DNA of 63,645 bases, the filler included, from Conidiobolus incongruus B7586 (taxonomy: Eukaryota): assembly GCA_000697335.1 (NCBI GenBank). It is 7 parts of 7 records of this genome, joined end to end, with 100 filler letters (N's around TTAATTAATTAA, not from the genome) between each part and the next. Parts side by side here need not be neighbours in the genome. Positions count along the whole stretch, not along the records: positions 1 to 19,582 come from JNEM01006524.1; positions 19,683 to 26,412 come from JNEM01006526.1; positions 26,513 to 32,767 come from JNEM01006527.1; positions 32,868 to 51,073 come from JNEM01006528.1; positions 51,174 to 58,454 come from JNEM01006529.1; 2 more parts are not named here. One strand, written 5' to 3'. The translations under genes and the position numbers were made by a program. This document shows positions 222 to 55,154 of the stretch, in pieces. Position 1 is the first letter of the stretch; the number at the start of each line of letters is the position of its first letter. The notes under the pieces are model-generated. The model was not told the DNA's origin, searched no databases, and saw only the letters and a list, made by a program, of their open reading frames with translations.

Positions 222-230
222 ATCCCATAA
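222..230 (+). promoter_or_regulatory. ATCCCATAA promoter motif (moaC)
   Basis: About 77 bp before ATG 307; recurs at similar spacing before other genes. Confidence 0.65.
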
Positions 231-306
231 ATTGTCGAATAAATCCTTTCCTCATAAAAAAATTCGAAAATTTCAAATTGATTATTATTTTCTATAAAAT
301 GTCAAA

Positions 307-864
307 ATGAATGCTTTAAAATTTTCCAGAGCTTTCAAACCCACGTTCAATGTTTTAAACCTACGTCAATTCACATCAATTCCTAACGATGGAAAATTAA
401 GTCATGTTGACAGTGATGGAAAAGCAAAAATGGTAGATACGAGTCACAAAATCCCAACCAAGAGGGAAGCTATTGCAGAAGGTATTATCAAATTAAATAA
501 AGCTGCTTACACCCAAGTGAAGGAGAACACCCACAAGAAGGGAGATGTTTTGACAGTTTCTAAAATCGCTGGAATTCAAGCAGCTAAAAGAACTAGTGAT
601 TTGATACCATTATGTCATCCTCTTCCTCTGAATTACGTGGATGTAGAATTCAACTATTTGGAAAGTGAGTCTTCTATTAGGGTTGTAGGTACTGTTAAAT
701 GTAATTATAATACGGGTGTCGAAATGGAAGCTTTAACCTTAGTGTCTACTACTTGTTTAACGATTTTCGATATGTGTAAAGCTGTAGACCCCTTGGCAGT
801 AATTCAATCCATCAAAGTGCTCAAAAAGACAGGTGGTAAATCGGATATCAATCTTCAAAAATAA
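307..864 (+). CDS. moaC: Cyclic pyranopterin monophosphate synthase MoaC (MOCS1B/Cnx3-type) with mitochondrial-like presequence
   Basis: Motifs LSHVD…AKMVD, KKGDVL, AGIQAAKRTSDLIPLCHPL, TGVEMEAL, TIFDMCKA, KTGGKS; basic, acid-free N-terminus; intronless. Confidence 0.95.
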   Translation: MNALKFSRAFKPTFNVLNLRQFTSIPNDGKLSHVDSDGKAKMVDTSHKIPTKREAIAEGIIKLNKAAYTQVKENTHKKGDVLTVSKIAGIQAAKRTSDLIPLCHPLPLNYVDVEFNYLESESSIRVVGTVKCNYNTGVEMEALTLVSTTCLTIFDMCKAVDPLAVIQSIKVLKKTGGKSDINLQK

Positions 865-886
865 ATCTAATGTTTAATCCAATTTA

Positions 887-2030
887 CTATTGCTCATTAT
901 TGTCAGATTCAAAACTAAATAATTTTTGAAATACTCAAATTTGAACAACAGGAAGCTTTTTCATTACTTCATCAGCATACACTTTGAGAAGACCTTTGTT
1001 CACCTTATACCAGAATGGGATGCCGAAAATGTCATAGAGCATTGATGAATGTTCATCGAAGGGACCTTGTTTCGCCTAGCAATCGTTAGCAAACATTATA
1101 ATAATAATTTGAGGATGATTTGCATGTCTAATAAAATCAATGCAGCCCATTAACATAAAATCATTCTTTAATCTTTCTACGAACTGTCGGTGTATTACCC
1201 ATCTCATCCACAAACATCGAATATCACAATATAATTATAAAATAAAATTATTATCTTTAAGTTGAGCACATCTTAAAATATATAGTATAAATTGAAAGTT
1301 ATCTAATTCTCAAACTCAGTGACTGCCTGCTAGTTCCAATCGAAAAGTTAATTGCAATCTTCTGAATAATTTCAAATATCCAAACTTTTATCAAATCAAT
1401 ATAAAATGGTCAATAAACTTTTCAAAGAAACTATCAAGAATAACCGATTCCAATATTTTATACTCACTCTGTTGAAAGAATTCCAAGTACATCAAATTAA
1501 ACAAAAAAAATATCAAAATGATTAACTCTTGTTTGTTCCGTAATCAATTCTTGTAAAATTGCTAAATATATGAATTAAATATGGTGATGATTCAACTTCA
1601 GAAGATTTCGAATTGTTTGGTAATTAATTGAGAACGAGTTCAGGTACTTCCTAAAATTGTTTACATTTAATGAGTAAATATGTATTTGAAATAGTCTACT
1701 TCTTCCATAGCTTTGAACCAATCACTGTAACTAGTATTGTCAAATCGATTGGAAAATTCATTGATAGGAAATTGTTCAATTAAACTGTCTAAATAATCCA
1801 AAATATTGAACATTTTTATAACATTTGCATATTTATAAACCAATTTTAACAAAGCTCCAGCATAAATTACTTGTGATTTTTCTAGTTTCAATATCAAAGA
1901 TAGTTAAATTAGTATAATTTTCGTTCAATAGTTTTAAAAATTCTAGGATTTAGTTATAACCAGAAGATTTATAAAATTGGATCATATTACTTTCAGTTTT
2001 AATCTTTCTTTCGGGTGTTGTAAATTACAT
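887..2030 (-). pseudogene. Decayed PP2A phosphotyrosyl phosphatase activator (PTPA/Rrd1-Rrd2 family) copy
   Basis: Minus strand reads M*FTTPERKIKT…YN*ILEFL, SNRFDN…DWF, FSNFTRIDYGTNKEL, LELAGSH*V*ELDNFQF, KQGPFDEHSSMLYDI…WYKVNKGLLKVY. These are PTPA motifs with several in-frame stops and intron remnants. Confidence 0.88.
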
Positions 2031-4019
2031 TGTAAATTTAATATAAATTTTAATATAGGTTGTAATGATAATTGTGACAGGATAGATTTTGTTGTTTAAA
2101 CTCTGTTTGATTAATATAAAATTGTATGGATTGATCTAGCTTTAATCATTTTTATGTTCATTAAAATTTAACAATTGTATAAGTTTAAAAAACTGACAAT
2201 ATTATCTTAATAAATAATAAAAATAATAGAATAGTTTAAACTTCATTTCAATCATAGTTTACAAAATTAGTATTAATATCGATTTCTGAATATAGTAAAT
2301 TAAAAAGATTATATAAATTATTTAAACTAAAATATCCTTACACTGAGTTTTTGGATATTTATCAACCAGTTGGGGCCATTACACTAAAAACAGATCACAA
2401 ACGGGGTAAATAAACTTACCAGACAGTGATAGAGCATTCACCTATGCAATAAATTCGACATAGATCAATTCTGTCATAGTTGAACCAAGGATCTAAATCA
2501 TATAGTCAATAAACGAAAATATATCCATTAAATATATATATATATATTATATTGAATAGCTTACACAGCTAAAATCAACTAACACTCGTACTGAGGCCGT
2601 TAATAATCATTCAAAACCTATCAATCTCAATCAAAAGCATCATTCATTAATGAATACTTCCAACTTCTGATTTTTCATTGAATAAATAATTCGCTGTAAA
2701 TAATATGTGTTTTTAGGACTGAAAAAGGTACAGTTAACCAAGATTGACCAACTTGACGACTTCTGGAAATAATGCGAATTTTATACTATAATTATTAATA
2801 CTAAAAAGTAAAATTAATGTATGTTGTTGCAATTTACTTGTTTTAATTGACTACTAAATTGCTCCCGTCCTAATTGCTTGACTTTATTTTCACTTGAAAT
2901 GACTCCAGAATTCGCGAAATACAGCCTCTTGTGGAAGGCTGAAATATCAAGGCTTTTTAACAATTTAGTCATTTCTATAGAATTGTCGTCGAAAACTACA
3001 AAATAATGAATATTGATATTTGGTGATATTTACCTAATCTCAATATTCAAATACTCAATTGTTTCTTAGATCTTAGTATCACTATCCGTAATCTTAGTAG
3101 CCAAAGTATAATAAATGTTAGTAGTATTAATATTCAACAGGTAATCATTTTTAAATTATGAATAAATCTTAGTCAAAAGCTTATTTCGCAATATGTATAT
3201 ACACGGATTTTATCAAAATTATTATGGGTCAAACTCTAAGTTATAAATTAATTGAATTTTTTAGTTTGGAATATTGGTTGATATTGAAAATGATTTATAT
3301 TGATTTCACAACATGAATTTTATTATAAGACCTGGATATAGTGTTAATATTCTGAGTAAATAGCATTCAAAAATTGCATCTAGAAACTAAATTAATGCTT
3401 GTTTGGTTAATGTGAATTCATCCAATATATCATTAATTAGAAGAGGGGGAATTCAGAATCAATTCAACAAATTCATTTATACATATTTCAGTGGTTTCAT
3501 CATTCATTTAGCATGTATCATTATTACGTTGATTCAAAATCACTTTTGTATTATTAGTTAAAACAATTCTCTCAATTATCATTAGTGTGATCATTGACTA
3601 GTTCATTCAATACATTTGATGACTTGAATCATGATGTATGAGTAACAAATTGTGATATGGTTAATGCAATACAAGAAACTTGAGACCCAAACAATTAACT
3701 CAAGTGAGAATCCATACAAAATTAATAATTTCAACGATACGGAGTAATCAAACAAAAAATTTCCTTAATTACATATTGAATGAACGGAAGTGAGTTGGAT
3801 AGGAGGGATAATCAATCCAGAGCAATTTCCCCCTCCTGAATGAAAGATATCCCATCACTTCAATATCAAACACCAATAATCGTTATGATACTAATGTCTT
3901 CCCAATTCAATTGAAAATATTCCAATTCTGTACATTCTCCCTGACTTTATTTTTGTTTTTCACTCCCACTCGTTCAATATTCTTAGTGTTCTTTGGTTTT
4001 TATTCAAGTATTCAAGTTA

Positions 4020-5334
4020 ATGTCTTCTCCAGCAACTCAGCCCCATAGAATTCGTCTTAGACTGACTTTTGGGTCACCTACCACTATGAGATTGAACCGT
4101 TCTGAAGGTCTTGCGAACCGGTCAATGAATTTGCATTATGTAAATTCGCAACCTACTCCATCTAGTGCTACAAGTAATGCAAGTCATAGGAACTTACTCA
4201 ACTCAGCTAACGAAAGAAACTCCGAAGTTGGGTCGAGCTCAAACTCGGAACAGGAAGCATCGCCAACACCACTTTCAAATTCTTTGTCTAATGAAGGATC
4301 CGAAGATTCTAACCAGACTGCTAATTCCATCACTCTCAATGAGGCACATGAACCGAATAGTATTCCTACTATAACTCAAAGGCGTCGACTACTAAAACTT
4401 CCACGAAAAACCATAACTCAAACTGAGTCAGTATCACCTTCTAATTATTCACAAACTACTATATCCCAAATTACCTTAAAGTCAATCCCAATTCTGAGAA
4501 AGCTTTACATACCCAAAAGAAAATTCAGAGGTACCAAACGAAGTATTGTGAAAATCGAAAATTCTGAAAATATGTCGGATAGCCATATACCTATACCTAC
4601 TAGGGGTCTACAGCTCAAGACGCATCCAGTTTTTGGGTAAGTGATAATTTTTTTGAATTAATTTGTAATACTAATATACCTATTATAGGATTAGAGGGTC
4701 TCTAGCATTTAAGAATAAACATTCTAAAAAATGTAAGTTATTAATTATAAATCAATCAATACATACACTAACTTATAAAATCCAGCACGACGCAAGGGAC
4801 TCCAACCCTTAGTAAAACGAGTATTGCTAAAGAATGCGAATATGGCAGCATTTGAACGAATCAAGCTCTTGAAAGATGCCAAACCGCGGGGATGGAAATT
4901 AGAGAAAATTGACAAGTTATCTGACGAAAGTTCTGATACCTTTGTGAGAGCATGGAGACCAAGTAAGTAGAATCTATCAGTATAAACCCTTCAATATACT
5001 AATTCAATTGATAGCATCAAATAGAAAAATTCGACCGATCATTCCACCTTCTGCGATTCCAATCAGCAAAGCTCCTAAGATGCCAACACGCACAGTACAA
5101 CCCCACACAATACCACCACCTTCCAATGTTAGCAAAACTATTACCGCGAACCGTGGTGCAATTCCCGTCCTGTCGTTCATAGACGAGAATGGCAACAAAC
5201 GATTGCAATGTCCAGGTAAAGATTGTCCCAAACATTTTGCAGATCGGTGCGGTCTTAACCGTCATAAGAAAAAGTATCATCCAGAGTTGGAAGATGCGGG
5301 ATTGTCCCAATTATCCAAATCTAACCATCACTAG
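4020..5334 (+). CDS. C2H2 zinc-finger protein, paralogue A (4 exons: 4020-4636, 4689-4732, 4786-4962, 5015-5334)
   Basis: GT-AG splicing joins the ORFs in frame; C-terminal finger CPGKDCPKHFADRCGLNRHKKKYH; same intron positions as paralogue B. Confidence 0.88.
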
Positions 5335-5896: not shown

Positions 5897-7264
5897 TTAT
5901 GATGAGAGTTGAATGGGTGGTAATTGAGCTCCGAGTGGTCCAATCTCGGGATGATGACGATTCTTGTGGCGATTGAGACCACAGCGGTCTGCAAAGTGCT
6001 TGGGACAGTCTTTACCAGGGCATTGGAGTCGTTTGTTGCCATTCTCGTCGATAAATGTGACTACTGGAATCATACCTTTGTCGTTTGTCGTGGGTTTGGG
6101 TATTGTTAGAGCCTTGGGTGCAGGAATGGTGTGAGGTTGAACAGGTTTTGAAATATTTGTCTTACGATGGATTGCCGACACTGGTGGTTGAATGAATGAT
6201 GATTGGATCTTGCGATTGGATGCTAGAATTTGGTTAGTTTCAGGAATTACCAATTCGTTAGGTTTAAACTTACTAGGTCGCCAAACGTAGGCTACATTGC
6301 CTTGAAAGTTGCTGTCCTGAGGAGTGATCGATTCCAACTTCCACTTTCTGGGTTTCAAGTCTTTTTGTGCCATAATTCTGTGTAATGCCATCATATTCGC
6401 ATTTTTAACTAGTACCCTTTTGAAAAGTGGCTGAGGACCTTTCCTACGACCTATACAAAATGTTGATTAGTAATTGAAAATCATTTCAAAATTCTTAAAA
6501 TGTTAATATTGCAAATAAACGACCATAGTTTTGGATATAATAATTTGGACTTACTCTTTTTATGATATTTAGCTTTCCAAGCCATTGAACCTCGAATACT
6601 AAGTTAAAACAGTTAGAATAATAAAAATAAATAGCCAAAATTTATCAACTTACCCAAATACTGGCTGAGATTTGATCTCGATCTTGCGAGTTGGAATATG
6701 CTCTTGATCAATTGTATTTTGAGCGCTGGTAGGTTTGAGTACACTTCGTTTAGTGCCACGAAGTTTGCGCTTAGGGGGATACAACTTCTTAGCCAGCTGA
6801 ATTTGCGTAGGGGTAGGTGTTGTGGTGGTTGACACAGTTGCTTGTGATACTGGTGATGTCGAATCGGAAGAAAATGTAACAAATTTTTTGCGAGCTGCTT
6901 TAAGAAGTCGGGGTCGGTATGGAACATGTTGAGTAGCTGTAAATTGATCAGCGGAGTCATCATTGGAAGGTTCAGGTAATTCGGTTGGAGTAGTGGCTTC
7001 ATCAGGTGAACTAGAGAGGGGTGTAGGAGAAGTAATTGGGTGTTGAAATTCTTGCTCATGTGCAGAAGGACTAGAGTCGACAGAGGGATTGAGAAGATTA
7101 GTGAGCTTGGCAGGTGATATTATGGTTTTAGTAGGTTGAGCTGTATTGAGGTAGTCTGTATCAGGTGAGCGCTTAAGGGAAGTTGGTACGGTGGCGTGAG
7201 CTGGAGGGTTGGTCGTATTGAGACGAAGCTTCACAGGAGATTGAGTGTAAGAAGGAGATGACAT
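5897..7264 (-). CDS. C2H2 zinc-finger protein, paralogue B (4 exons), convergent with paralogue A
   Basis: Finger CPGKDCPKHFADRCGLNRHKNRHH; shared blocks KKLYPPKRKLRGTKRS, PVFGIRGS, RRKGPQPLFKRVLVKNANM; matching introns. Confidence 0.88.
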
Positions 7265-9015
7265 AAAATAAATAAAAATAAAGCGTAAAATTAAAGGTAG
7301 AGAATAGGAAGAAGAGAGTTAAGAAATAAACGAAGAAAAGAAGTGGAGGCTAAGATGAAGCTGAATGAGAATTTAGCATAATTGAAAGCGCACAATATAT
7401 GGATTCCAATTGGATTGGATTAGTTTGTGATAAGTTGGCAATTGAACGCTTGAGGGGGGAAATAATTGCATCAACTGTAACCCAATGATATGATGAGACA
7501 GGATGGGAGGATAAAAAAAGATCAATTCGCAATTGCCCACAATTCTAAGCCTGTATGAGGTGGGCTAATTGCGGTGGGTTCATTCCAAGCATGCAATATA
7601 TCCAGGCATCAGTATCATATTCAAGCTTAAAACCCTTTCTAACCCTATTCTTTGACCCATCTCTCAAATATACAACATATTTAATCACAGTACAAAGGTA
7701 CTCAATACATAATTTTATTCAATAAGACCTTATCCATCGCTGAATATTTCATAATTACCATGAATCAACCAGTTCGGAAATATATCAAACTTATTAAAAA
7801 TTCACAACTCCTCATCATTCAACTTTCAATTCCATTTCTATTAATCAATTTAAATACAAATAAAAATAAAAGAGTAAAATATGAAAAAAACACAATTCAT
7901 AAACTTATATATTACAAAAATGTTATATTACTATTCAATATCTCAACTTGCGTTTTTGCATTTCAAAAATCTCATTTTCCTAAAGTTTTCGAACCTTACA
8001 ATATTATTTTCAAAAATTTTTTACTTTAAAAATCATTAAGTTTGCGTTTTACTATATTGGGAAATTTACAGTATTGATAACACTTTCCTAATTTTATTCA
8101 GGCTAAATCTCTAATTGCATAAATTTGTTAGAATTGTTGAGATTGAATTAAAATGGCAAGTTGGGAGTTTTGTTAGATAATTGGAAGTGATTAGTGATCC
8201 ATTTAAAAGTATAATATAATTTGTACTGTGTTTAACGGTTATTAAATTAACTATTATTAAAGATAAGATGAATTTAATGAATATCTAATAATTATTAGCT
8301 GATTCACTTTGATCACAAGTTTTGAATAGTTGAAATAACGTAGTAACAAAGCATAAAATAACTATGCAAATAATTAGATATGAAATAAAGATATATACTC
8401 TAGCATTTTCATTTCAACGAATATTATCAATATAAAATATTTAACTATATTGAAAATATTTTGATAAAAATAATAATAAATTATTTTTGTTTTAAATTTT
8501 GATAACTTATTAAATTTAATCAATATTGGTAATTATAAGTTATGATTAAAGTTGGTATGACAAATAATTTGAAACATTTTTGAATTCTGAAATAAAATTA
8601 AATAACAAAATATTTTTTAAACATGATTATTTACAATATATGTGATTCTGTGATTATGTTAGATATTTCATTAATTTTTTATTAAAGTATTATAAATAAA
8701 ATACTGCTGTTTAAATATTCAAAGTAATAAAATAAGCAATAAATATTCCTAAAAATTCCAAATAAATCCTTTGTTATATATAAATTAAAATTCCCTTCCT
8801 AAAATTAAAAGATAAATAATTGTGGCAAAATATCAATAACATGTCAAATAATACCAAATTTAAAAAACCAATGATTAAATCAAAATTTGTATCAAAATGA
8901 ATCGCTTGCCAAATTTCATAGTGAAACTGAAATAGATATTTAAATGCAATGGTATCAATATTCATATAATCAACTATGTTGATTATATTTAAAACATACA
9001 TTTAATAGTATCTAT

Positions 9016-9881: not shown

Positions 9882-9890
9882 ATCCCATAA
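9882..9890 (+). promoter_or_regulatory. ATCCCATAA promoter motif (CDK10-like)
   Basis: About 84 bp before ATG 9974. Confidence 0.65.
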
Positions 9891-9973: not shown

Positions 9974-11711
9974 ATGACATCCAATAATAATAAACCCACA
10001 CTATTAAGACTAAATAGCAAGGATCAGCCATCAGCAACTCATCTTGTGACATTTTCTGGAAAGACTTTAAAACGAAGTTTGGAGCGATACTATCCAATTA
10101 TCGGTACATCTCACTACAAAGACCAATTTCAATTCCTCGAAAAAATTGGCCAAGGTACCTACGGTATTGTCTCGTAAGTCTTCTTTAACCATTATCCTAT
10201 ATAGTTAATTAATCTTCAAATTATCTCTAGACGCTATCGCAATCTCAAAACCAATCAAATCCGAGCGGTGAAAAAAGTTAAAACTGAGGAAGACAACAAG
10301 GACGGATTACCTATCTCGAGTCTGAGGGAAATCACCATATTAAAAAATTTAAATCACCCCAATATAGTCAAGTTGACAGAGATTATGGTGGGTAAAAGGC
10401 TCGATGATGTGAATTTGGTAATGGAATTTTGTGATCAGGTAAGTATTATAATATTGAAAATATATAAAATAGTTTGTTAAATTCATATGATTAGGATTTA
10501 GCAGTAATTTTAGATCATTCGGAAACCAAATTTAGTTTGGAAACTAGTAATTATTTATATTCTAACATTATTTGAGTTTTTGTTAACTATTGTAATTAGC
10601 AAAAGGATTATTTTTACAATTTTTAAGGGGATTAAAATATTGCCATCATAGACAAATTATTCATCGGTAAGTAGTATTTAAAACAATGAAGGTTGTGAGC
10701 TGATGGTGGATGTAGAGATTTGAAATTGTCCAATTTATTATTGACTCATGATGGTATACTGAAAATTGGTAAATAATAAAATTTTGATAATATATTGAAT
10801 GATAGATTAAATAAATTGTAGCTGATTGGGGTATGGGCAGACGCTACCATCCAATCGATCAAAATGGAAATTTGACGCCGAGAATTTGTACATTATGGTA
10901 TAGAGCTCCAGAATTAATGTTCAGTGATCAACCCAACTATGGTGCGGCTGTCGATATGTGGTAAGTTTTGTTCTTTCTAATTTATTGGATTCCCTCTCAT
11001 TCATTCACTTATTTAGGTCTGCTGGATGTATTCTTGCAGAATTCCTGCTTAAAAGACCCTTGTTTCCTGGTAGGACAGATGTCGACCAAGTGAATCTCAT
11101 GGTCAAGTTGTTGGGATCTCCTCATGAAGGTATTTGGAGTGATTTCCATACATACAAATATCATGATGCTTTCCCCACTATTTACAATGAGTAATACATT
11201 AATTTAACTGTGAACTTTGAATATTAATTTGATTACATTTAGATATAATACACTGGACGAATTATTCCCAGAAGCTTCTGAAGCGACCCTCCATCTTCTC
11301 TATGGACTTCTCACCTACGATCCCAAATTAAGAATGACGGTAGAAGAAGCATTTTATCATCCCTACTTTGTTGAAGATCCCCAACGTAATAATTATTTCC
11401 TTAATTTTATTTAAATTGACTTAATAACTTTTATTTAGCACTTCAACCCAATCAACTCCCAAAATTCCCTGACTATCGCAAGAAGCTAGGCACCATTCAC
11501 CTGTAAGCTACACTTATGTAACCCATTTCAATATATTAATTTGGTATTTTATAGACATCGCAGTAAACTCTATTGTGCACCTTTAGAACCTGCAAATAAC
11601 CCTCAATCTCAGGATGAAAAGGACCCCAATGCTAATAATAACAACAATGCTGCAGCTGGTCAACCTGCTGAGGAAGCTAACAATCTGCCACCAGTAGCAC
11701 CAAATCCTTAA
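9974..11711 (+). CDS. Cyclin-dependent kinase, CDK10 (PISSLRE)-like, multi-exon
   Basis: [69 protein letters not shown]; about 11 exons. Confidence 0.9.
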
Positions 11712-12149
11712 TGATAATGCTAACTGTTAAATATATTGTTTTAATCTTCAACTTCATTTGGCTTATTGGTTAATTTTATAAATTATATAAATAATACATC
11801 ACTCATTGTGCATGCTAATTGATTACACTATGTAACAGCAAAAAATCATTTCAACCCAAACTAAATTTTTATGAACAATTTAATGTTTGCTAGTTCTATA
11901 ATATTGTTGAAAAAAATTTAGCTTTAGTTTTCAAAATGTTTGGAAAATATATTACAGTAATGCTTAATTTGATGAAAATTACATAATTAAAACAAAATTA
12001 TTTGTATATTTTAATTAATTTAAATCAATACTGTATATAAATATATATTTTGGGATTTATTTACTAATAATCACTGATCAATATATAATTGAATATAACT
12101 TATAAACTGATCACACTAAACACTAATAGAAAAATCAATTAAATAATCA

Positions 12150-15615: not shown

Positions 15616-15624
15616 TCCCCATAA
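15616..15624 (+). promoter_or_regulatory. CCCATAA promoter motif variant (RKI1)
   Basis: About 80 bp before ATG 15704. Confidence 0.55.
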
Positions 15625-15703
15625 TTAATTTCAATTTAAAAGGGTATAAAACTATGCCAATCCCTAAAAGTATCCTTAAACTAAATTTAATCAACTTTAA
15701 AAA

Positions 15704-39259: not shown

Positions 39260-39416
39260 TGTGAATATCTGGTTTTGATAATTAACTATTAAGATTAAAT
39301 AATGTGAATAGTTATGATTTCAATTTTTAGTGACAGTTATTTTTTGATGATAATGATTTTGATTTAAATTTCAAATTAATATGAGTAAATATATAGATTC
39401 TAATTTGAGGAATTTA

Positions 39417-39425
39417 TTATGGGAT
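39417..39425 (-). promoter_or_regulatory. ATCCCATAA promoter motif (CKS1-like)
   Basis: TTATGGGAT on +, about 158 bp before minus-strand ATG 39259. Confidence 0.5.
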
Positions 39426-39514: not shown

Positions 39515-39516
<2 letters not shown>

Positions 39517-43208: not shown

Positions 43209-43299
43209 TTTTGATAGTGTATATTCAATGTCAAAATTAATCGAATTGAATAATTTTTGTTTAGGATAAACTTTTATATCCCAAACTTCAGTGATCATT

Positions 43300-43308
43300 T
43301 TATGGGAT
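43300..43308 (-). promoter_or_regulatory. ATCCCATAA promoter motif (NOP13-like)
   Basis: About 92 bp before minus-strand ATG 43208. Confidence 0.65.
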
Positions 43309-44711: not shown

Positions 44712-44803
44712 ATTAATTTTAAACTATTTTATTAATTTGCTATTATTCGGATTATGGTGTGGAATGTTTGTTCATTTAAATTTTTGTATATGGATAAATT
44801 GAT

Positions 44804-44812
44804 TTATGGGAT
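44804..44812 (-). promoter_or_regulatory. ATCCCATAA promoter motif (BUD21-like)
   Basis: About 93 bp before minus-strand ATG 44711. Confidence 0.65.
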
Positions 44813-45227
44813 AGAATCTACAATAGTTTATTGTAATTTTTATTAATTATTCTAATAGATATTGAGTAGATGAATTTCAAAAAATATATATTTATAAAAT
44901 GTAATAAATCAAAAATATTTTCTTATATTGACTTGAATTTATAATATAGTCTTATATTTCTCTCATTCTAATACAATGGTAATAGAATTTAATACCTTAT
45001 TAGGGTTCCCACAATTTACTACTCATTTTAAACGAGATAAATTAATCATAACTTTTGAATTTGATCAACTTCAATTATTCAATTTTCAATAGTCTCCCAG
45101 AATATAAAATATTATAGCCATTGAAAAACAAAATAATTCAACCTATCACCTTAAAAATTTTAATATAAAATTATAATTTCTAGTTAAAATATTTTCAACG
45201 ATTAATAAATTTATTATACAAAATAAA

Positions 45228-47257
45228 ATGTCTTCAACTCAAGAGCAACCCCTAAAAGAATTCAGCGAATTTCATTTAGATTTTCGATTGCTAAGAGCTA
45301 TTGCTAAAATGGGTATTACCAACCCTACAGAAATTCAAACTCAAGTGATTCCATTAGCTTTACAAGGCAAGGATATCTTAGCTAGAGCTAAGACGGGTAG
45401 TGGTAAAACTTTAGCTTATGGCGCTCCTATTATTCAGAGTATTTTGACTAAAACAGTAATTTAATATATTTTATTTAATATAAATTGTATGATATTAATG
45501 TTTATTTAGAGCAGCAAAAATGGAGAATCTAACAGTGGAATTCAAGCATTGATTTTGGTACCTACATCGGAGCTTAGTTTTCAAGTTGCTGACCATTTGA
45601 CCAAATTAACTCTGTACTGTCCAGAAATTAAAATAGTCAATGTTATTAGTAAAAATCAATTGGAAAATAAACAGAATAACAATCAGTTAGATCCTGCTAT
45701 TAAGTAAGTTTTATTATTAAAAGACAATTATTTTATGTAATATTAATTCAATTTGTATAGATCACAATTAAAAGAAATTCCTCATATTATTATTGGTACA
45801 CCAAGTAAAATTTTAGAATTGGTTAATTCAAAGGTAATTAAACATACAATATTATTATAATAATATATTTAACATTGTAATTTTAGATAATTGAAATTAA
45901 AACATCATTAACTCACTTGGCCATTGATGAAGCTGATTTGATCCTATCATTCGGTTATTTTGATGATCTTAAAAACTTAGTCCCTAATTTACCCAACCCT
46001 TGTCAAACCTATTTGATGAGTGCCACTCTTCCCCCTGATCTCAAAGAACTCAACTCCCTTATTCTCACTAACCCTGCCATTGTCCACCTCAAAGATTCTG
46101 AAGATCGCGGTCAATTGACAGAATACCAATTCCCATGTCAATCTGAAGATAAATACCTGTTGTTATATGTTATTCTTAAACTCAAATTAATCAAAGGGAG
46201 ATGTATCATATTCGTCAATTTAGTCGATAGAGCTTACCAAATCAAATTATTCTTAGAAAAATTCGGTATTAAAACCTGTATTTTAAATTCAGAATTACCT
46301 TTGAATTCAAGGTATCATATTATTCAAGAATTTAACAGGGGTAAATACGATTATATTATTGCTACTGATGAGTATAAGCCCAATACCAATACTCAAAATG
46401 AGCAAGCTAATGATACTGAAAATGATCAAACTAAAAATGATCAAGATGAAACTACTAAAGATGATGAATCTTCAGAATTGCCAAAAGTTGATGAAGTAGC
46501 TCCTAAAGGGGAAGAATCTGCAGAAGTCCTTAAAGATGTCAAGATCAAGAAGAATAAGAAGAATAAGAAGCCTCAATACGATGCTGTCACAGGAACTTAT
46601 GGTGTAAGTCGAGGTGTGGATTTCCAAAATGTTGCAGCTGTCATTAACTTTGACTTCCCTCCATCTGTCGAAAACTACACCCACAGAGTTGGTAGGACTG
46701 CTAGAGGTGGCAAGAAGGGTATGAGTTTATCACTCGTCGTCAACGACGATCCCGAAGAATTGATGTTAGCTGCTCAAGTTGAGCAAAGTCGTGAAAAGTT
46801 AGGCGCCAAGGTCCAACCCTTCAAATTCGATCTAAGTCAAATTGAAGGTTTCAGATATCGTGCTCACGACGCCTTGCGATCAGTCACCAAGACTCACGTA
46901 AAGGAAGCTCGATTAAACGAACTCAAAGAACAAATTTTGAATAGTGACAAACTCCAGGCACACTTCGAAGATCGTCCCCAAGACTTGGAATTCTTACGTC
47001 ACGATTTGCCTCTCCTACCCAAAACTGTACAAGCTCACTTGAAGCACGTGCCCCAATACCTTCTCCCCAAGATCCAAGAAGTGACATCGGAGGGAGCATC
47101 TTTGGGCAAGCGCTCCAACGATGATGCCACCTCGCTAGGACCCATCCAGTTCAACAACAAGCATTTCAAGAAGTACAAGCAGAATAGAGGTAAGAACAAG
47201 AAGCTGGACCCTCTCAAAACTTTTGCGAAGAAGATAAATAAGAAGGGCAGGAAATAG
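45228..47257 (+). CDS. DBP9: DEAD-box RNA helicase Dbp9/DDX56 (4 exons)
   Basis: [71 protein letters not shown]. Confidence 0.95.
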
Positions 47258-49059
47258 ATTCATATTAATTTTGATAATATTACACTGGTATTGTTATAGA
47301 TTATTACATACATATATATTATAAAAGAGTTTTTAAATTAATAAAAGTTTTATTTTCAATATCCTATTTTTTTTAATAATTTTCCAAAAATTGATCATAG
47401 TTATATTTAATTTATTATAATTTTATTTAATTTTGATCCATATAAATCAATAATATAAATTTACAATATTAATTTAATTGAATAATTTACAATTTATATT
47501 CAATATCATAATATATTACAACATTATGCTAATTTAAAAATCAATTATTATCTTATTTTTTTATTATTTTATATATCACTTATAGTATAGTCCATATAAT
47601 TCATAATTTTATGATATTATTCTATATAATCATATTATTCTTATATTTTACGTTTAATGTTAATTTGAATCCAAAAAATTGTTTTATTATTTAAAAGATA
47701 TTTTAAAAATATCTATAAAAAACTATAAAACATAAAGAATTAAATGGTAATTGATTATATTCTCATTTGATTGATACAATTTTGAATGGAATTTATAATT
47801 TTATTTTTTGAATAATATCATATGTTTAAGTATATTTAAATGTTCAAAACTTTTTTCACTATCAAATTTGTTCAATTAAAATATAAATATTGGAAAGACA
47901 TAAAATATACTCGGTATCATTGGTGTATAATTTTAATCAAAATATATTGACACACCTAACAAATTTTGTATTAACACTAATGCATTTCAAACTAAAGTAT
48001 TAAGAATTAATTCATAAATTCTAAAATATCTACATTGTCAAATGATCTCACTAATTTATACATTTTTATATTATTTTTTTTATCAAAAACACTATCCACC
48101 AATAATACGAATGGAATAACATTAAGTTCTAATAAGTTTTTTAGATTTAGATTTATTAAAATACAGAAAATTTCATTATATTCATTAGTTCAATATGATA
48201 TATATACCTAATACCTTGATAAATTTGAGAGTGTGAATTGTTAAGAATTAATTACATCTATTCTTTTAAATGAAATGTAACAATTACCAAGATAGGTGTT
48301 ATTTAAAGTGAGTTCATTTTACATAAACTTGCAGCTTGTTACAATGCTACACTTTAATTCCTTTGTATAAGTGAGGTGAAATTTGAATTATCGCATTTAG
48401 TCAATTTTTATTTATTTTACACATTTTTTTCTCATATGTCATTCAGATTCTATTATGTATAAGAATTTAAACTTAGAAATAGTTAAAATAATATTTAATA
48501 ATATTCAAAATATTGAAAAGGTCTAATATATTATTATATCCTTTATAAACTGATTATAAGACATGACCTTAAAATAAGTCCCAAATTTGATTTTAAAAAA
48601 CTAAATAAATCATTGAATTGATTGAAATTAATTATTATTCATTTCTGATTGAAAATGATTCTCACATGAAAATTGCTAATTTCACTAAATTCGAACATAT
48701 GATTATTGATTGATTACTTGTTTGTTTATTTTTGGATGTTGACAAGTTGTTGGAACCTGTGTCAATAATATTTTTGAACGGTGTATATAATTTTATATTT
48801 CTATAATATTCTTGATAGCAATTCGCATACTCTAATATTTTCAAGAGTTAACGGTATACAAACATTATCATTAATCACCTCTTGAAAAAAAGGTTACTTA
48901 AGAACAATACAAAATTGTATTAAGTGTTTAGTCATTTTATAATCAGAAACTATTGATTGTAATTAGGAATATTCAGTATTCATGATATATCGTCATCAAA
49001 TGGTATAAACATTAAGTAAATTAATACATTTATTAAAGGTAAGATTTGGAGAAGATCGC

Positions 49060-49455
49060 TTATAAACCAGCCTTGACACGAGCTTGCTTTAATACGTTAT
49101 CTAACTTTGTAGCCAGAAGCATTTGACCCTTGAGCTTAATTTTGCCTTGCATAAAAGCCTTCTGAGCGTTGAGCTTACCCTCAGCAAGACCTACCATAAT
49201 GTCGTCGTTGGTAGAGATGACTACATCGGGCTTAACTTTGGAAGGACCTTTGTAAACTTCACCCTTGTCAGCCTTAGCGTCAACTGTCCAGCTCTGGGTC
49301 TTACCATCTTTGTTCTTGATATCGAATTGGAAAATTCCCTTGACTTTATTAATCATAGCCTTCATTTCAGCTTCTGGGAACGCTTTAAACCCAGCATCGA
49401 TTAATACAAAAGCTTCAGAAGCGTTAAATCCGTCAGCAACGAGAGGATGAGACAT
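49060..49455 (-). CDS. SCP2 sterol/fatty-acid-binding domain protein
   Basis: GIFQFDI, WTVD, GKLNAQKAFMQGKIKLKGQMLLATKL; C-terminal AGL resembles a PTS1 variant. Confidence 0.92.
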   Translation of the reverse strand: MSHPLVADGFNASEAFVLIDAGFKAFPEAEMKAMINKVKGIFQFDIKNKDGKTQSWTVDAKADKGEVYKGPSKVKPDVVISTNDDIMVGLAEGKLNAQKAFMQGKIKLKGQMLLATKLDNVLKQARVKAGL

Positions 49456-51173
49456 TTTTTCTTATATTTAATACAGATTCAATGAAAAATTATCTTACTT
49501 TGTGCAGTTAATAATTCTCATGCTAATAGCACATGTGCCCTTTTTATACTGCAAAATATTCATATGATGAGACGATTTCTGAAACCTTAATTAACTGAAT
49601 TCGCATTGATAGCATTAATAATAAATTTCATTTTATCACAACTGTCGATTTGTGTGTTTGAATGTCAAAATAAATCAAATTGAACTATTTAATTAAAATA
49701 ATTTTATATTACAATAATGTAATATAAATCCTAAAAAATAGTTCAATTTATTCAAATAAATTTGGATATATATATATATATTACAGATGACAACCCATAA
49801 CCTCTACGACTCTATTGTTTTGTACATACAATTATTAATATTAATTCTTATATGAAATCAAGTCAAAATCTATCAAAATATTTTAGTTTCTTCATAATAC
49901 AATTCTCTATTGCTTCCTATTTGCATCGGATTTGAGTCAAATTTTTATTTCCGAATTAAATTTCATTTTTTTTGATTCAAATTTTTATGTAAAGTTTGGA
50001 TAATTATAATTTCAAAATACTAAACTATTTGGTAGATTAATAAACAGTTTATTCAAATAATCAAGAAAAATTAGCTTGATGCATGCTTGTTTTGATAAAA
50101 TTTGTAAATATATATATAAATATTTAGATATAGACTGGAACAAGTATATTATGATAATGTTTTTGGATCATTTTTTGACATTCAATCCAAGGTTGATAAG
50201 TAATCGTTCATTATAATTTTAGAATTTTATATTATCTATGGAACAATATTTGCTCATTAATTGGTTATTGGAATATATTAATCATTACTAAAAACCAATA
50301 ATTACAATGCTTACTATTAATAATAGTAATAAGATCTATATATAATGATTAACAATTGACTTAATATATTGTAAATATATCTTAAAATGCTCCAAAAATA
50401 TAATATATATGTTATGAATGAATAATTTTGATTTCAAATCTTTAAAATAAATAAAATATAGAAAGTTCATTATACTCTAGTTAAAAAAATAATAGTATTT
50501 TGTATAATTAAATGATTTATAAGTTTGATTAAATATTAATCAATCAATAACTTTGTTTTTTTTATATTTATATTTAATATTAAAAAGTCTCTAAATATAC
50601 ATTAAAGTATAATGTTTATTAATTTGAATTTATAATATATAAAATATTTATTATTAAATTAATATATAATTTAAAATTATATTTAAAAAAATTTACTATA
50701 TAATAAATCAATAATAATTCTTTTTAAATAGAATTATTATTTAATTATAAAAAATCAAAATTATTTTAATTTATATCTCAACTATCTTATATATTAATAT
50801 TTTAATTGACTAAAAAAATATAATAATAAAACTAATATAATATAAATAAAAAATAAATCTATTATTTATATTGCAGGTTAATATATAAATAAACTAAGTT
50901 TTTTTAAGCTTTATAAATAAATAAATAAATTTAGATATATAAGATTATATATCAAATTATTTCAATATAGTATAATATTGATAAATACACTTTTGATCTT
51001 AAAATTGTTAATTATAATGAAAAATTAAATAAGAAAAAATAAGATATATAAATTTAACTTTTTTAAGAATTTANNNNNNNNNNNNNNNNNNNNNNNNNNN
51101 NNNNNNNNNNNNNNNNNTTAATTAATTAANNNNNNNNNNNNNNNNNNNNNNNNNNNNNNNNNNNNNNNNNNNN

Positions 51174-51445
51174 TCATTGTATGTGCTAAGCTTGACTGCT
51201 CTGTGAAGATCTATTAACCTCCAAGTCACTTTTCTTACATAGTGGCTGCCCACACTTTGTATACCTGTGTCCTCTGGTTCTTTCTCGTTTTAAGATCACC
51301 ATCTCATGTCTGTTTACTTTTGCCTACATCTGTTTTATATACTCCTTTAGCGAGAAATTAAGTGAATTGGGTCCTGTCCCAGGAATTACTACGGTTATCC
51401 ACTTGGATGAATTGGAAATATACTATATGCTTTGTAACTATTACG
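51174..51445 (-). mobile_element. Possible LTR fragment abutting a gap
   Basis: GC-richer non-coding island with a minus-strand TATATAA; other end lost in the gap. Confidence 0.25.
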
Positions 51446-51488
51446 TATACTTGGTAATTACTAAGTGATACGGCGGTTTTATTATGTC

Positions 51489-51497
51489 ATCCCATAA
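51489..51497 (+). promoter_or_regulatory. ATCCCATAA promoter motif (p2-like)
   Basis: About 84 bp before ATG 51581. Confidence 0.65.
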
Positions 51498-51580
51498 GTT
51501 GTCGAATAAATCCTTTCCTCATAAAAAAAAAAAAAAGAAATATATGAATATTCAATACTAAAAAATAATAACAATAAAAT

Positions 51581-52207
51581 ATGGTAGATCCCATAGACCC
51601 TAACTTGAATCAACAACTTGAAAAGCAAGAATGGGTAAAACAAATGCGACTAAAATTTTGTAAACGTCCTAATTTACCCTCTACCCATACCATGATTCAC
51701 GAAGATGGAACATTAAATCAAGAGTAATTAAACAACTAAAAATATACTCAACTTATTAATATTCCAAAATAGTTATTTTAGACCTAGTATCAAAGATCTT
51801 AAAAAAGCGAAAATTGATATGGAAGATACAAATAAAAAATTTAATGAGGAAGATAAAGAAAAATTAATTAAAGGTATTGAAGAATATGGTATCGGTAATT
51901 TTAGAGAAATTTCGGAGAAATTACTACCAGATTGGGTACTATCTATTAATTTGAATGTGATTGTTTTCATTAATGATGGTTTTAGGCACCTCAAGAACTC
52001 AGAGTACGTACTATGAGATTGATAGGTAGACAGAATTTGCAATTATACAAGGATTGGAAGGGGGATCACGAAGCGATTTTGAAGGAGTACGAATTTAATA
52101 AGGAATTGGGTCTTAAGTATAATATGTGGAAGAATAATACACTAGTTTATGATGAGGAAGGTTTGGTCTTAAAGGAATTGAAGATTCATCACAATATTCA
52201 AGATTAG
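51581..52207 (+). CDS. Myb/SANT-like small protein, probable p2 subunit of the MTA1c/AMT1 DNA 6mA methyltransferase complex (exons 51581-51723, 51773-51935, 51986-52207)
   Basis: Spliced product WVKQMRLKF…IHEDGTLNQDYF…LIKGIEEYGIGNFREI…ELRVRTMRLIGRQNLQLY resembles my recollection of ciliate p2 (EDGALN..YF, GIELFGVGNWKEI, ELELRT). Confidence 0.75.
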
Positions 52208-52335: not shown

Positions 52336-53213
52336 TCATTTACCGTTCCTCTGTTGTGTCGAATTATACACCTTCAAAGCGTTCAAAAACACTGGGTATA
52401 TTAATCGATCGTTAAAGGGGTTTGTACTAGATCCAAATATTAACAAATATTTTTCTTTGAATAATCAATAATATTTACCTTATTTCAGCCGATTTCAATC
52501 CAAGAGGAGGGAAATTCCTAAATGTGAAAGGATATTGAGGTGCTATAATGAGATTGGGGCCTTGTAGTAAACCTTCATCCACTAGCGTCTTATGAATTGA
52601 TTCCACCTGATTATCCAACTTCTGGTCAATAACTCGACTGTCTATCAATTGGTTCAAAACATTTGTCAACTCCGTCTTAGTATGGTGTAAACAAATTAAT
52701 GTAATAGTCAAAACTGAAATAAAATATTAATATTATATATAATAAAGATAATTATAAAATTTAATACTTACTCAAGTTATCATCCTTATCAAAATAAAAG
52801 AACTTATTACCGTCTTGTTTAATTTCAAAGGTACCCAAACTGTAATAAGGTTTTTGAACTCTCTCCCTACTTTCCAGCATCTGTTTCAAACTCAACTCAA
52901 TTTCTTTTTGGTTTAAAAACATAGTTAATTTGGGAATTTTTGCTATAATACACCAATTCGCCAACTTAGCCAACTGATAGCTGAATGTGGGGTTAGAATC
53001 CAGAATAACTGCGAGGTGTTTTGGCAGTTTCTGGATGGGGATCAGGTCTTGAGTGATGGTATCAGTGTTGTGGTAATTGTTAGACACTTCCAACAGATAT
53101 GTGAGTCTTTGGAATGTGAGGTTCAGGTGGGAATATATGAGATGAGTCCATCTCAAAATTTGCCAAATGCTGTAATAGACGAAAGTTAAAGTGGTCGTTA
53201 TTATCAAACTCAT
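52336..53213 (-). CDS. NUS1: Cis-prenyltransferase subunit Nus1/NgBR (3 exons)
   Basis: N-terminal hydrophobic segment, KLPKHLAVIL, GPNLII, NFPP…AEI, C-terminal QQRNGK (RxG motif). Confidence 0.85.
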
Positions 53214-54177
53214 TGTAATATATTCAATTTAGGATAATTCTCAATACAGTTAATTTTAAAATATATATTTACAGTTAAATTAGATAATTCTCAAAGAAAT
53301 AATTGATTCTTTAAAAAAGGATCAACTTTTCAAAATTCGAGGAGATTTTCTTCGAATTTATACTTCGGTATCCTTTTTGATCCAAATTATTCATATTTTC
53401 TCATTTTTAACTTAACCCAGTTTGTTACTAATTTCAAACTTATCCCCAATTAGATATAATTCAGCCAATTGTATAAAATTATATTATACAATGAGGGGAA
53501 CTTGTATCATTCTGATTGGTTATAGATTCATTTTTCAAATTCTTTGATAAATCCTAAACTCAGTGAATAAAAATGATATCACTATTGAATTAAATTTATA
53601 AATTTTCAATTTAATAAAAATTCGCCATGAATTTACTAGAATTTGAACTAGTTCATTGAAAGTACACTGATAGTGAATGTAGTATAATAATTTTTTCTGA
53701 TATGATAGTTCATTAATATAATTCAAAATAGACTAAATTAAAGGAAAAGTCCAATGATTCAATAGTTGAAATCATAGACTAATTTTTTAGTATTGAATCT
53801 AATTCAATAAGGTAATTTTATACACATTTTCAATAATGTTCATTTTTTAATTTTTTAACGTTATTTTATTTAGTTATTATGGAGGCTGGTGGTGTGATGT
53901 CAATAAAGATAACACAGTACCTATCAAAGGATCTAACTGATTTGGATTTATTGATTACAATTGTAAATTTTACATTTTTGGGTTAACTTTTCAATAAATT
54001 TGTACTGTTTGTAAATTTAAATTTTAATAATCAAGATTTTTCAAATTGATAACAATAATTTCTAAATATTACTTGAAATTAATTCATAAGGAGTAATCAA
54101 TTTGACAATGTAACAATTCCTATAATATTAAACCATATCTAAATATCTATTACTTTATTAAATACATTCAAAAAAAA

Positions 54178-55060
54178 TTAGCTTTGCATCTTTTTAGCTT
54201 TTAACTTTCTGTAAGCTTCTATTACTCTCAATCTTTCATTCTCCATAATACGCTTATCAGCCGCTGATTGGTTGGGATTTTTAACCTATAACAATCAATT
54301 AATCATACATTATAATTGTAGTAAATTAATTTACCTTGAATTTCTGTTTAGGCACCACCAACTTGGGAGGCTCTTGAACTACTTCGCCAAATTTGACTCT
54401 GTCATTCAATTTGTTGAAATCTTTGATCTGGTTCTCCTCCTTCACCAGCTCTTTTATGATTTGCTTTTGTTCTTGACGCATTTGTTTCCTCCTATTAGTT
54501 TTATTAGTATTTTATAACAAAATATAGCAATTATTACTATTACTTTTGAGCTTTTGTTTTCAATTGCTTATTATTATGATTGAGTTGTTGGTATAGTGTA
54601 TCATTCACTCTCCTAAAAATAGAATTAGAATTCAATTAAATATCTAATAATACTGTTGATATTTACTTGTTAAAATCTTTCAAGCTTTCGTGAGGTTGAA
54701 TCTTCAAGTCCGATAATTTTGAATTCTAAAACTAATTAATTAATATTCCTTATTTATTATGAAAATTATTTACTTTATTATTATTATTATGATTATTATC
54801 ATTTTTAGTATCTTTCTTTTTATTTTTATTATTTTCATCTTTGTTATTATCTTTATTGATGTTTTTCTTATTATTCATATGGTTCATTAACCTCATAAAC
54901 TTTTTGGGAGTATCGCTGTCTCCCTGCTTGATGGTTGGTGCTAAATCAATACTAATGAATAATGTTAGAGATTGAATTTGATTAAATTTGTAATAACATA
55001 TTACTTGGTGGGTTCTTGATTAGCAGCTTCTCCAAATTTAACTCTTTTACGTTTTGTCAT
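54178..55060 (-). CDS. CCDC137-like nucleolar protein (6 exons)
   Basis: Spliced SDTPKKFMRLM, KIQPHESLKDFNKRV, VKFGEVVQEPPKL, ERLRVIEAYRKLK. Confidence 0.75.
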
Positions 55061-55145
55061 TTTATTTTATTTGATTTTTTGTTATTTTTTTTTTGAATTA
55101 AAATGAATTATTTAACCCTCAAATCGATGTTTGATTAAATGATTA

Positions 55146-55154
55146 TTATGGGAT
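55146..55154 (-). promoter_or_regulatory. ATCCCATAA promoter motif (CCDC137-like)
   Basis: About 86 bp before minus-strand ATG 55060. Confidence 0.65.

What the first reader, a model, noticed from the sequence alone, without database searches (positions are those of the whole stretch)
222..55154. Oriented, position-fixed promoter motif ATCCCATAA before housekeeping genes
Seen: the exact 9-mer on the coding strand at 222, 9882, 43300, 44804, 51489 and 55146, about 77-93 bp from the ATG, plus a CCCATAA variant at 15618 (~80 bp) and one copy ~158 bp from CKS1. It flips strand with the gene every time. I did not find it before the TF, secreted-protein, SCP2, NUS1 or DBP9 genes. It does not match TATA, PAC or RRPE as I know them. 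Inference: a lineage-specific core promoter element or general regulatory factor site.
Basis: seen in the sequence. Interest (0 to 1): 0.7.

Follow-up and report, generated by a model that had tools for sequence, protein, structure and literature searches.

The report
snRNA-type promoter signal before housekeeping genes
In this Conidiobolus-like fungus a short DNA word sits, always pointing the same way, about 75-90 bases before many ordinary protein-coding genes and often 20-22 bases before a TATA box; it matches the signal that other eukaryotes reserve for small nuclear RNA genes, so the snRNA factor SNAPc is likely, though untested, to be starting housekeeping genes here.

Summary
All 7 exact ATCCCATAA copies lie sense-oriented 76-157 nt before an ATG and none is antisense. 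Two CCCATAA variants do the same. Three things are new.

(1) Two of the 7 copies (222, 51489) are not independent. They are the A-tailed end of a repeat that is 130-170 times deeper than single-copy DNA. The signal survives without them (5 of 5, P about 1e-9).

(2) TATAWA begins 20-21 nt after the core at 4 of 7 unique-DNA sites (1 of 10,000 permutations), but at only 2 of 5 exact sites.

(3) The word matches published snRNA-promoter elements (USE/PSE, bound by SNAPc): CCCRTAA in Ostreococcus, RTCCCWTA in Stentor. The spacing matches insect U6-type promoters, and Zoopagomycota retain SNAPc subunits.

Best reading (0.5): a USE+TATA core promoter read by SNAPc at Pol II housekeeping genes. It is not lineage-specific as a word, but unusual in its use. 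Not shown: this fungus's snRNA promoters, its SNAPc genes, start sites, binding. Against: human PSE+TATA selects Pol III, and human SNAPc binds fewer than 100 promoters.

The parts
222..230 (+). ATCCCATAA, repeat-borne, 76 nt before the MoaC ATG (307)
1..262 (+). 3' end of a dispersed repeat (depth about 12x single copy over 110-197, about 130-170x over 231-252); AATAAA at 238-243, A7 run at 256-262; class (non-LTR-like) inferred
   Evidence: start lies outside the window
3222..3230 (-). GACCCATAA variant, 73 nt before a candidate ATG (3148) of a broken PTPA gene; start uncertain
3196..3201 (-). TATATA, 20 nt after the core
9882..9890 (+). ATCCCATAA, 83 nt before the ATG (9974) of a protein kinase gene (CDK10/11 label recalled); no TATAWA at +20-22
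15616..15624 (+). TCCCCATAA-type variant (core 15618-15624), 79 nt before the ribose-5-phosphate isomerase ATG (15704)
15645..15650 (+). TATAAA, 20 nt after the core
39417..39425 (-). ATCCCATAA, 157 nt before the ATG (39259) of a CKS-family gene
39390..39395 (-). TATATA, 21 nt after the core
43300..43308 (-). ATCCCATAA, 91 nt before the ATG (43208) of a three-RRM gene (NOP13 label recalled)
43273..43278 (-). TATAAA, 21 nt after the core
44804..44812 (-). ATCCCATAA, 92 nt before the ATG (44711) of a multi-exon gene (BUD21/NOL7-like label recalled, no Pfam support); no TATAWA at +20-22
51175..51536 (+). 3' end of a second subfamily of the same repeat, next to an assembly gap; last 24 nt before the A run identical to 232-255; A14 run at 51523-51536
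51489..51497 (+). ATCCCATAA, repeat-borne, 83 nt before the ATG (51581) of a Myb-like gene whose family profile matches the p2/AMTP2 subunit of the ciliate 6mA methyltransferase complex
55146..55154 (-). ATCCCATAA, 85 nt before the ATG (55060) of a multi-exon gene (CCDC137-like label recalled, no Pfam support); no TATAWA at +20-22

Best explanation
ATCCCATAA is an oriented word before about half of the genes in this window, often 20-22 nt before a TATA box, and is likely a USE/PSE-type core promoter element that the snRNA-activating complex SNAPc would bind to place TBP and start Pol II transcription of housekeeping mRNAs. Shown: position, orientation, spacing to a TATA-like box, and identity to published USE consensuses. 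Inferred steps: (1) a three-subunit SNAPc binds the CCCATAA core in one orientation; (2) it positions TBP about two helical turns downstream, on a real TATA box at some genes and on A/T-rich DNA at others; (3) Pol II starts about 30 nt after the TATA box, which would put the core near -58 to -52 and give 5' UTRs of about 25-40 nt (about 105 for the CKS gene); (4) an A-tailed retroelement carries the same word 25 nt before its tail, so a copy that lands at a core promoter supplies a replacement element at a working distance and is tolerated.
For: Position and strand: 7 of 7 exact copies and 9 of 12 CCCATAA lie in sense -200..-60 windows, 0 antisense; without the repeat-borne pair, 5 of 5 (P 1.3e-9) and 7 of 10 (P 4.7e-11). 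No 7-mer with at least 3 G/C reached 7 of 16 promoters in 3000 shuffles. TATA register: TATAWA at +20/21 in 4 of 7 unique sites, 1 of 10,000 under both shuffle and shift nulls with the offset left free; composite pattern 6 vs 0.22 expected, 2 of the 6 repeat-borne. Word: ATCCCATAA fully satisfies 2 of the 8 USE consensuses in PMC8287931 Table 1 (Ostreococcus CCCRTAA, Stentor RTCCCWTA) and differs by one letter from the other 6 over their first 8-9 letters (comparison by eye). Human SNAP190 reads CG pairs at -62/-61 and GpT at -60/-59 of the U6 PSE, a CC-purine-T core (PMC9652321 section 9). Geometry: the insect PSEA spans positions 1-21 with conserved positions 5, 6, 8 and the TATA box spans 34-41 (PMC1761439); laying CCCATAA on positions 6-12 (my alignment, figure not seen) gives a 21-nt gap. 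Factor: SNAP43 is in half of 12 Zoopagomycota, in all Mucoromycota and in no Dikarya; SNAPC3 has average copy number 1 in Zoopagomycota (PMC10406608 supplement; column order of the SNAPC3 sheet inferred from other sheets). The organism groups with Entomophthorales (SH-aLRT 97, quick tree). Precedents: SNAPc co-opted for worm piRNA genes; U6 promoters can drive mRNA in reporters. Repeat: both ends in the window are sense-oriented with the motif 76 and 83 nt from an ATG; random placement gives about 1e-5.
Against: No snRNA gene of this fungus was seen (Rfam 0 hits in the window; no genome held), so the defining comparison is missing. No SNAPc gene was shown for this organism, and half of the Zoopagomycota surveyed lack a detected SNAP43. 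In humans a TATA box after the PSE selects Pol III, not Pol II (PMC6004067), and SNAPc occupies fewer than 100 promoters (PMC3499247). The 20-22 nt gap is about 4-6 nt shorter than the human and Arabidopsis Pol III gaps. The TATA register rests on few sites: 3 of 6 without the PTPA remnant (22-77 of 10,000) and 2 of 5 for exact 9-mers (539-1410 of 10,000, not significant); 3 of 7 unique sites have none. The match to the USE is only 7-9 letters, with no conserved second half of a PSE visible. 0 of 3 informative orthologous promoters from other organisms have it. Four housekeeping-type genes lack it. A review reports fungal U6 promoters as TATA/A-block/B-block types, with no PSE named. The window start and a gap adjoin both repeat copies, so their frequency here may be biased.
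Confidence: 0.5

Rival explanations
1. The word is the site of a general regulatory factor unrelated to SNAPc (Reb1/Abf1/Tbf1- or M1BP-like in role). It opens chromatin and fixes TBP position at constitutive genes, and the likeness to the USE is convergent.
For: Explains orientation, distance and housekeeping bias (9 of 13 housekeeping-type vs 0 of 7 other genes, Fisher p 0.005; classes assigned by me after the fact) without overturning the polymerase rule. The USE match is short. Recalled, untested look-alikes: CSL/LAG-1 RTGGGAA, posterior homeodomain CCCATAAA, Tbf1 CCCTAA.
Against: Needs two coincidences: the same core as protist USEs and the insect snRNA spacing to TATA. No CCCAT/ATGGG string appears in the main text of the Rhizopus 58-TF DAP-seq paper (motif logos not visible).
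Confidence: 0.35
2. All copies descend from the A-tailed repeat, which inserted at promoters and decayed except for the core (transposon-seeded motif, later exapted or neutral).
For: 2 of 9 upstream copies are repeat-borne and sit at the same distance as the rest. One unique site (3228) shows weak likeness to the repeat end (52 of 2000 shuffles).
Against: 6 of 7 unique sites show no likeness to the 30 nt after the repeat's core (346-1964 of 2000; the repeat pair itself scores 0 of 2000). Bins over 39417, 43300 and 44804 have ordinary depth, 19-41. Unique sites have true TATA words, whereas the repeat offers only CATAAA made from its tail.
Confidence: 0.08
3. The motif is itself a divergent TATA box (CATAA core) bound by TBP.
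For: CATAA is followed by A or T at 8 of 9 sites; orientation is fixed.
Against: A separate TATAWA lies 20-21 nt downstream at 4 of 7 unique sites. The invariant part is CCC, which TBP is not known to read (own knowledge).
Confidence: 0.05
4. Chance pattern in A/T-rich DNA, picked after looking.
For: The 7-mer is not enriched window-wide (12 vs 9.67); ATGs were chosen by eye; it is one window.
Against: Look-elsewhere tests give 0 of 3000 for 7-mers and for 9-mers.
Confidence: 0.02

Closest known systems
USE/PSE of type-3 snRNA promoters bound by SNAPc (green algae, Stentor, Blastocystis, plants, insects, human)
   Same: Core word (CCCRTAA, RTCCCWTA), fixed orientation, fixed distance to a TATA box; the gap equals the insect Pol III geometry by my alignment.
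   Different: Sits before intron-containing protein-coding genes, at 9 of 20 genes in the window, whereas human SNAPc serves fewer than 100 promoters, essentially snRNA-type. The gap is shorter than in human and Arabidopsis. No conserved 3' half was seen.
C. elegans piRNA promoters (SNPC-4/SNPC-1.3)
   Same: SNAPc co-opted for thousands of non-snRNA Pol II units (PMC7884074 passages).
   Different: Those units are short non-coding, germline and clustered; these are dispersed housekeeping mRNA genes with a canonical-looking USE core.
Microsporidian CCC-like motif
   Same: A CCC word before most coding genes in a fungal relative (PMC2803860 passages); 43% of the Rozella-Microsporidia clade retain SNAP43.
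   Different: It lies within 15 nt of the ATG and downstream of the A/T-rich element; here the order is reversed and the distance is 73-92 nt. No factor is named in the passages seen.
Housekeeping promoter factors such as yeast Reb1/Abf1/Tbf1 and Drosophila M1BP/DREF (recalled, no call)
   Same: Position-constrained, often oriented sites at constitutive genes.
   Different: Different words; no recalled fixed 20-22 nt link to TATA.
Promoter-targeting or promoter-donating retroelements: S. pombe Tf1, Drosophila HeT-A 3' promoter (recalled, no call)
   Same: An element at promoters that carries an outward-facing promoter at its end.
   Different: Here the end is A-tailed and carries the host's own core word; element class and targeting are untested.

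Membership tests
USE/PSE (SNAPc-dependent promoter element) | Core sequence matching known USE/PSE consensuses | tested here: met
   Full match to 2 of 8, one mismatch to 6 of 8 USE consensuses
USE/PSE (SNAPc-dependent promoter element) | Fixed orientation and fixed spacing to TATA box | tested here: met
   7 of 7 sense; TATAWA at +20/21 in 4 of 7 unique sites, but only 2 of 5 exact sites
USE/PSE (SNAPc-dependent promoter element) | Same element upstream of the organism's own snRNA genes | not testable with these tools
   No genome held; no Rfam hit in the window
USE/PSE (SNAPc-dependent promoter element) | SNAP190, SNAP50 and SNAP43 encoded by the organism | tested here: inconclusive
   Phylum-level only: SNAP43 in half of Zoopagomycota, SNAPC3 present; SNAP190 and this species not checked
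USE/PSE (SNAPc-dependent promoter element) | Lies about 50-70 nt upstream of the start site | not testable with these tools
   No RNA run was available; compatible by distance to ATG only
USE/PSE (SNAPc-dependent promoter element) | Bound by SNAPc and needed for transcription | not testable with these tools
   Needs ChIP, EMSA and reporter mutagenesis
Classical type-3 snRNA promoter (as a gene class) | Downstream unit is a small non-coding RNA gene | tested here: not met
   Downstream units are protein-coding ORFs 73-157 nt away; Rfam 0 at gathering score. It works like one but is not filed as one.
Non-LTR retroelement 3' end | Dispersed multicopy end with a variable A tail and poly(A) signal | tested here: met
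   Depth 130-170x over 231-252; A7 and A14 in the window; unrelated flanks after 259-263
Non-LTR retroelement 3' end | Reverse transcriptase ORF and target-site duplication | tested here: inconclusive
   5' parts are cut by the window start and a gap; no Pfam or Atlas assignment for the short frames present
Microsporidian CCC-like motif | Within 15 nt of the ATG, after an AAATTT-like signal | tested here: not met
   Gap 73-157 nt, with the TATA-like word downstream

The most novel reading that the evidence does not exclude
In Conidiobolus-type fungi SNAPc is a general core-promoter factor for a large share of housekeeping mRNA genes, using U6-like USE+TATA geometry with Pol II. A young A-tailed retroelement carries its own USE at its 3' end, so that it can insert at core promoters and rebuild them.
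Probability: 0.35. Interest if true: 0.85.

Novelty: new variant of a known kind. Interest (0 to 1): 0.66.

Why it matters
SNAPc is regarded as a specialist for fewer than 100 snRNA-type promoters in humans, and one core subunit (SNAP43) was not found in any Dikarya. A eukaryote that runs bulk housekeeping transcription from USE+TATA promoters would break the split between mRNA and snRNA promoters. It would give a natural system for the open question of how SNAPc promoters choose Pol II or Pol III, and it would define a core promoter in a fungal phylum where my searches found none described.

Tried and rejected
Genome-wide histogram: no genome held.

Expression and start sites: no RNA holder listed.

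Footprinting against the diverged second gene copy in run X1: its contig aligns at 43156-43225 and again from 43426, but not across the promoter at 80% likeness; none was captured at MoaC. Runs X5-X7 hold next to none of the stretch.

Metagenome scans: DBP9 gave 0 confirmed of 595 candidates. The Myb-family scan gave 10 loci, only 3 with more than 300 nt upstream, and no sense-strand CCCRTAA in any of the 10. The repeat core gave 0 hits in viral contigs.

RNA genes: Rfam gave 0 at 49500-51600 and 3 chance-level hits at 1-400. The copy at 49794 (AACCCATAA, no coding gene after it) therefore stays unexplained.

Hairpin idea: the copy at 222 folds with the core in a loop (-6.2 kcal/mol) but the copy at 51489 does not (-1.0). 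Rejected as general.

6mA link: no methylation data; ApT counts show no peak at the motif.

SNAPc search in Entomophthorales proteins: not run, because no SNAPc protein was available as a query. BRF2 is not listed in the supplement searched (file cut when stored). The Canzler 2016 survey of fungal U6 genes is not held, and the supplement of PMC8287931 with USE alignments could not be read; both may bear on whether early-diverging fungi have USE promoters.

My recalled label 'p1' for the Myb gene was replaced by the PDB match p2/AMTP2. The single-exon PDB searches had missed it. Earlier scan findings: four look-ups empty, four unrelated notes.
Full report
Organism and genes. The window is A/T-rich, intron-containing fungal DNA. 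The DBP9 exon's best named relatives are Zoopagomycota and Basidiobolus proteins at about 48-51% identity. A quick tree of 26 rows (25 of the 120 listed hits, chosen for taxonomic spread) groups it with Neoconidiobolus, Entomophthora and Massospora at SH-aLRT 97, on a long branch; the careful tree did not finish. 'Conidiobolus-like' is my inference. I annotated 20 genes by eye. Pfam supports MoaC, a kinase, RpiA, CKS, three RRMs, DEAD, SCP2, SH3BGR/glutaredoxin, CAP and Myb. The labels CDK10, NOP13, BUD21-like, CCDC137-like and NUS1-like are recalled and lack Pfam support at that level. No genome was held.

The observation. The exact 9-mer occurs 7 times against 1.52 expected. All 7 lie on the sense strand in the -200..-60 windows of 18 genes, which cover 1.9% of positions; none is antisense (the CAP gene and a GNAT-like gene with no clear start were left out of this count). 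Gaps to the ATG are 76, 83, 157, 91, 92, 83 and 85 nt, with variants at 79 (15618) and 73 (3228, before a PTPA gene broken by stops). The 7-mer is not over-represented overall (12 vs 9.67), so the signal is positional: 9 of 12 copies are in those windows, and the other 3 are at 17427, 49794 and 56201. A look-elsewhere test on the 16 promoters without repeat found CCCATAA in 7; no 7-mer with three or more G/C reached 7 in 3000 dinucleotide shuffles. By my after-the-fact classes, 9 of 13 housekeeping-type genes and 0 of 7 others carry it (p 0.005; 7 of 11 and p 0.013 without the repeat pair).

Two copies ride on a repeat. Sites 222 and 51489 share about 60 nt ending in an A run. Contigs of two DNA runs of one sample, which may be the window's own source, were laid on 110-430. 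Summed depth is 168 and 990 over 110-175, 2135-2367 and 10,859-12,185 over 231-252, and 14 and 84 over the MoaC coding region. Summed depth is a rough measure, but the ratios (about 12 and 130-170) agree between the runs. Matches stop at 259-263 and continue into unrelated A/T-rich flanks; upstream loose ends include the 51489-type sequence. AATAAA lies 12 nt before an A run of 7 or 14. This reads as the 3' end of a poly(A)-tailed, non-LTR-like family (inferred; no reverse transcriptase or target duplication was visible). The positional result stands without these two copies (5 of 5, P 1.3e-9). The other sites are not this repeat: 6 of 7 show no likeness downstream, and three covered have ordinary depth. 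Both repeat ends are nevertheless sense-oriented with the motif 76 and 83 nt from an ATG, inside the 73-92 nt range of 6 of the 7 unique sites; random placement would give about 1e-5. That points to targeting or selection, on n = 2, with both copies beside assembly breaks.

A second element at fixed spacing. Aligning the sites on the core showed TATAWA starting 20, 20, 21 and 21 nt after it at 3228, 15618, 39423 and 43306, and CATAAA at 22 nt in the repeat; three unique sites have none. With the offset left free, 4 of 7 unique sites is reached by 1 of 10,000 shuffles and 1 of 10,000 circular shifts. Without the PTPA remnant it is 3 of 6 (77 and 22 of 10,000). For exact 9-mers only it is 2 of 5 (1410 and 539 of 10,000), which is not significant. 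The register is probably real but rests on four sites.

What it resembles. An oriented CCC word at fixed spacing before TATA is the layout of type-3 snRNA promoters. Table 1 of PMC8287931 (passages and section 20 read; supplement unreadable) lists USE consensuses including CCCRTAA, ACCCATAA, AACCCRTAA and RTCCCWTA, and states that SNAPc binds the USE. ATCCCATAA fits 2 of 8 fully and 6 of 8 with one mismatch over their first 8-9 letters. PMC9652321 (passages, section 9) shows SNAP190 reading two CG pairs and a GpT in the human U6 PSE. PMC1761439 (passages; figure not seen) puts the insect PSEA at positions 1-21, its invariant ATTC-CAA in the 5' half and the TATA box at 34-41; my alignment gives a 21-nt gap, as here. 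Human and Arabidopsis Pol III gaps work out about 4-6 nt longer (plant USE consensus from PMC9845283 passages). The supplement of PMC10406608 (rows of file 3, cut when stored) has SNAP43 in 0.5 of Zoopagomycota, 1.0 of Mucoromycota and 0 of Dikarya, and SNAPC3 at one copy in Zoopagomycota.

How it most likely works. Shown: position, orientation, TATA register, likeness to the USE, and SNAPc subunits in the phylum. Inferred: SNAPc binds the core, sets TBP two turns downstream, and Pol II starts about 30 nt further on, leaving 5' UTRs of roughly 25-40 nt. The repeat's end would then act as a portable promoter that spares a gene whose promoter it interrupts. I put 0.9 on a functional core-promoter element and 0.5 on SNAPc as its reader.

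What argues against SNAPc. In humans PSE plus TATA recruits Pol III (PMC6004067 passages), and SNAPc occupies fewer than 100 promoters (PMC3499247 passages). In plants, spacing rather than TATA presence decides the polymerase, and U6 promoters can drive mRNA in reporters (bioRxiv 10.64898/2026.10.23.761446 passages), so the rule is not universal. A review describes fungal U6 promoters as TATA/A/B-block types (PMC5855946 passages); the survey behind it was not held. No snRNA gene or SNAPc gene of this organism could be examined. Of 10 metagenome loci with orthologues of the 51581 gene, 3 had enough upstream DNA and none had the word; the window's own copy there is repeat-borne, so this test is weak. 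A general regulatory factor with a convergent site remains at 0.35.

Comparison and novelty. It works like a USE; it is not a classical snRNA promoter, because the downstream units code for proteins. The nearest precedents are SNAPc co-option for worm piRNA genes (PMC7884074 passages) and the microsporidian CCC motif, which differs in place and order (PMC2803860 passages). I found no description of this element in a fungus in ten searches. I saw listings only (for example 30 of 256 papers containing the 9-mer), and most subscription journals are not held. PMC12638772, PMC5415576, PMC9841428 and PMC11258239 (passages) added nothing on the motif; the last reports high 6mA in Zoopagomycota.

Verdict. 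One look at the snRNA genes of this genome would largely decide it.

Noticed in passing
window 51581-52207 (+): Myb-like gene; all 23 homologues found are from early-diverging fungi, and the family profile hits p2/AMTP2 of the ciliate MTA1c 6mA methyltransferase complex (E 2e-9). This suggests the organism has symmetric 6mA machinery, and this gene's promoter word is supplied by a repeat.
   Followed up: partly
window 38600-51000: Run X1 holds a second, diverged copy of several genes (contigs with clustered substitutions), and an unnamed protein is 83% identical to DBP9: possible hybrid origin or genome duplication.
   Followed up: no
window 935-3150 (-): PTPA-family gene with in-frame stops (pieces hit PF03095); probably a pseudogene that still has a variant motif and a TATA box.
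   Followed up: partly
window 49792-49800 (+): AACCCATAA (equal to the Blastocystis USE) with TACATA 22 nt later and no coding gene downstream; Rfam found nothing. A possible unannotated small RNA gene, or chance.
   Followed up: partly
window 45006-45014, 45094-45102, 40177-40187, 3849-3857 (all +): Near-variants of the motif before genes lacking the exact word: TTCCCACAA and CTCCCAGAA before DBP9, ATCCCCAATAA before the SH3BGR gene, ATCCCATCA before a C2H2 gene. They lie at 130-220 nt, and no TATAWA register was seen for those scanned.
   Followed up: partly
window 43539 (loose end): A contig from elsewhere in the same genome carries the exact motif in another A/T-rich context.
   Followed up: no
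window 3987-5334 (+) and 5897-7318 (-): Two paralogous C2H2 genes face each other tail to tail as an old inverted duplicate.
   Followed up: no
window 12000-14000, 26500-33000, 57600-60000, 62900-63645: Very A/T-rich (10-16% GC), CpG-free decayed repeats, one with a weak reverse transcriptase remnant at 29291-29512; suggests strong C-to-T mutation of repeats.
   Followed up: no
window 299-310 (+): An out-of-frame ATG (three codons, then stop) overlaps the MoaC start codon.
   Followed up: no
window 60420-61700: Tandemly repeated 230-nt segments (76% alike) with unassigned reading frames, next to an HTH-bearing transposase-like remnant at 62467-62691.
   Followed up: no
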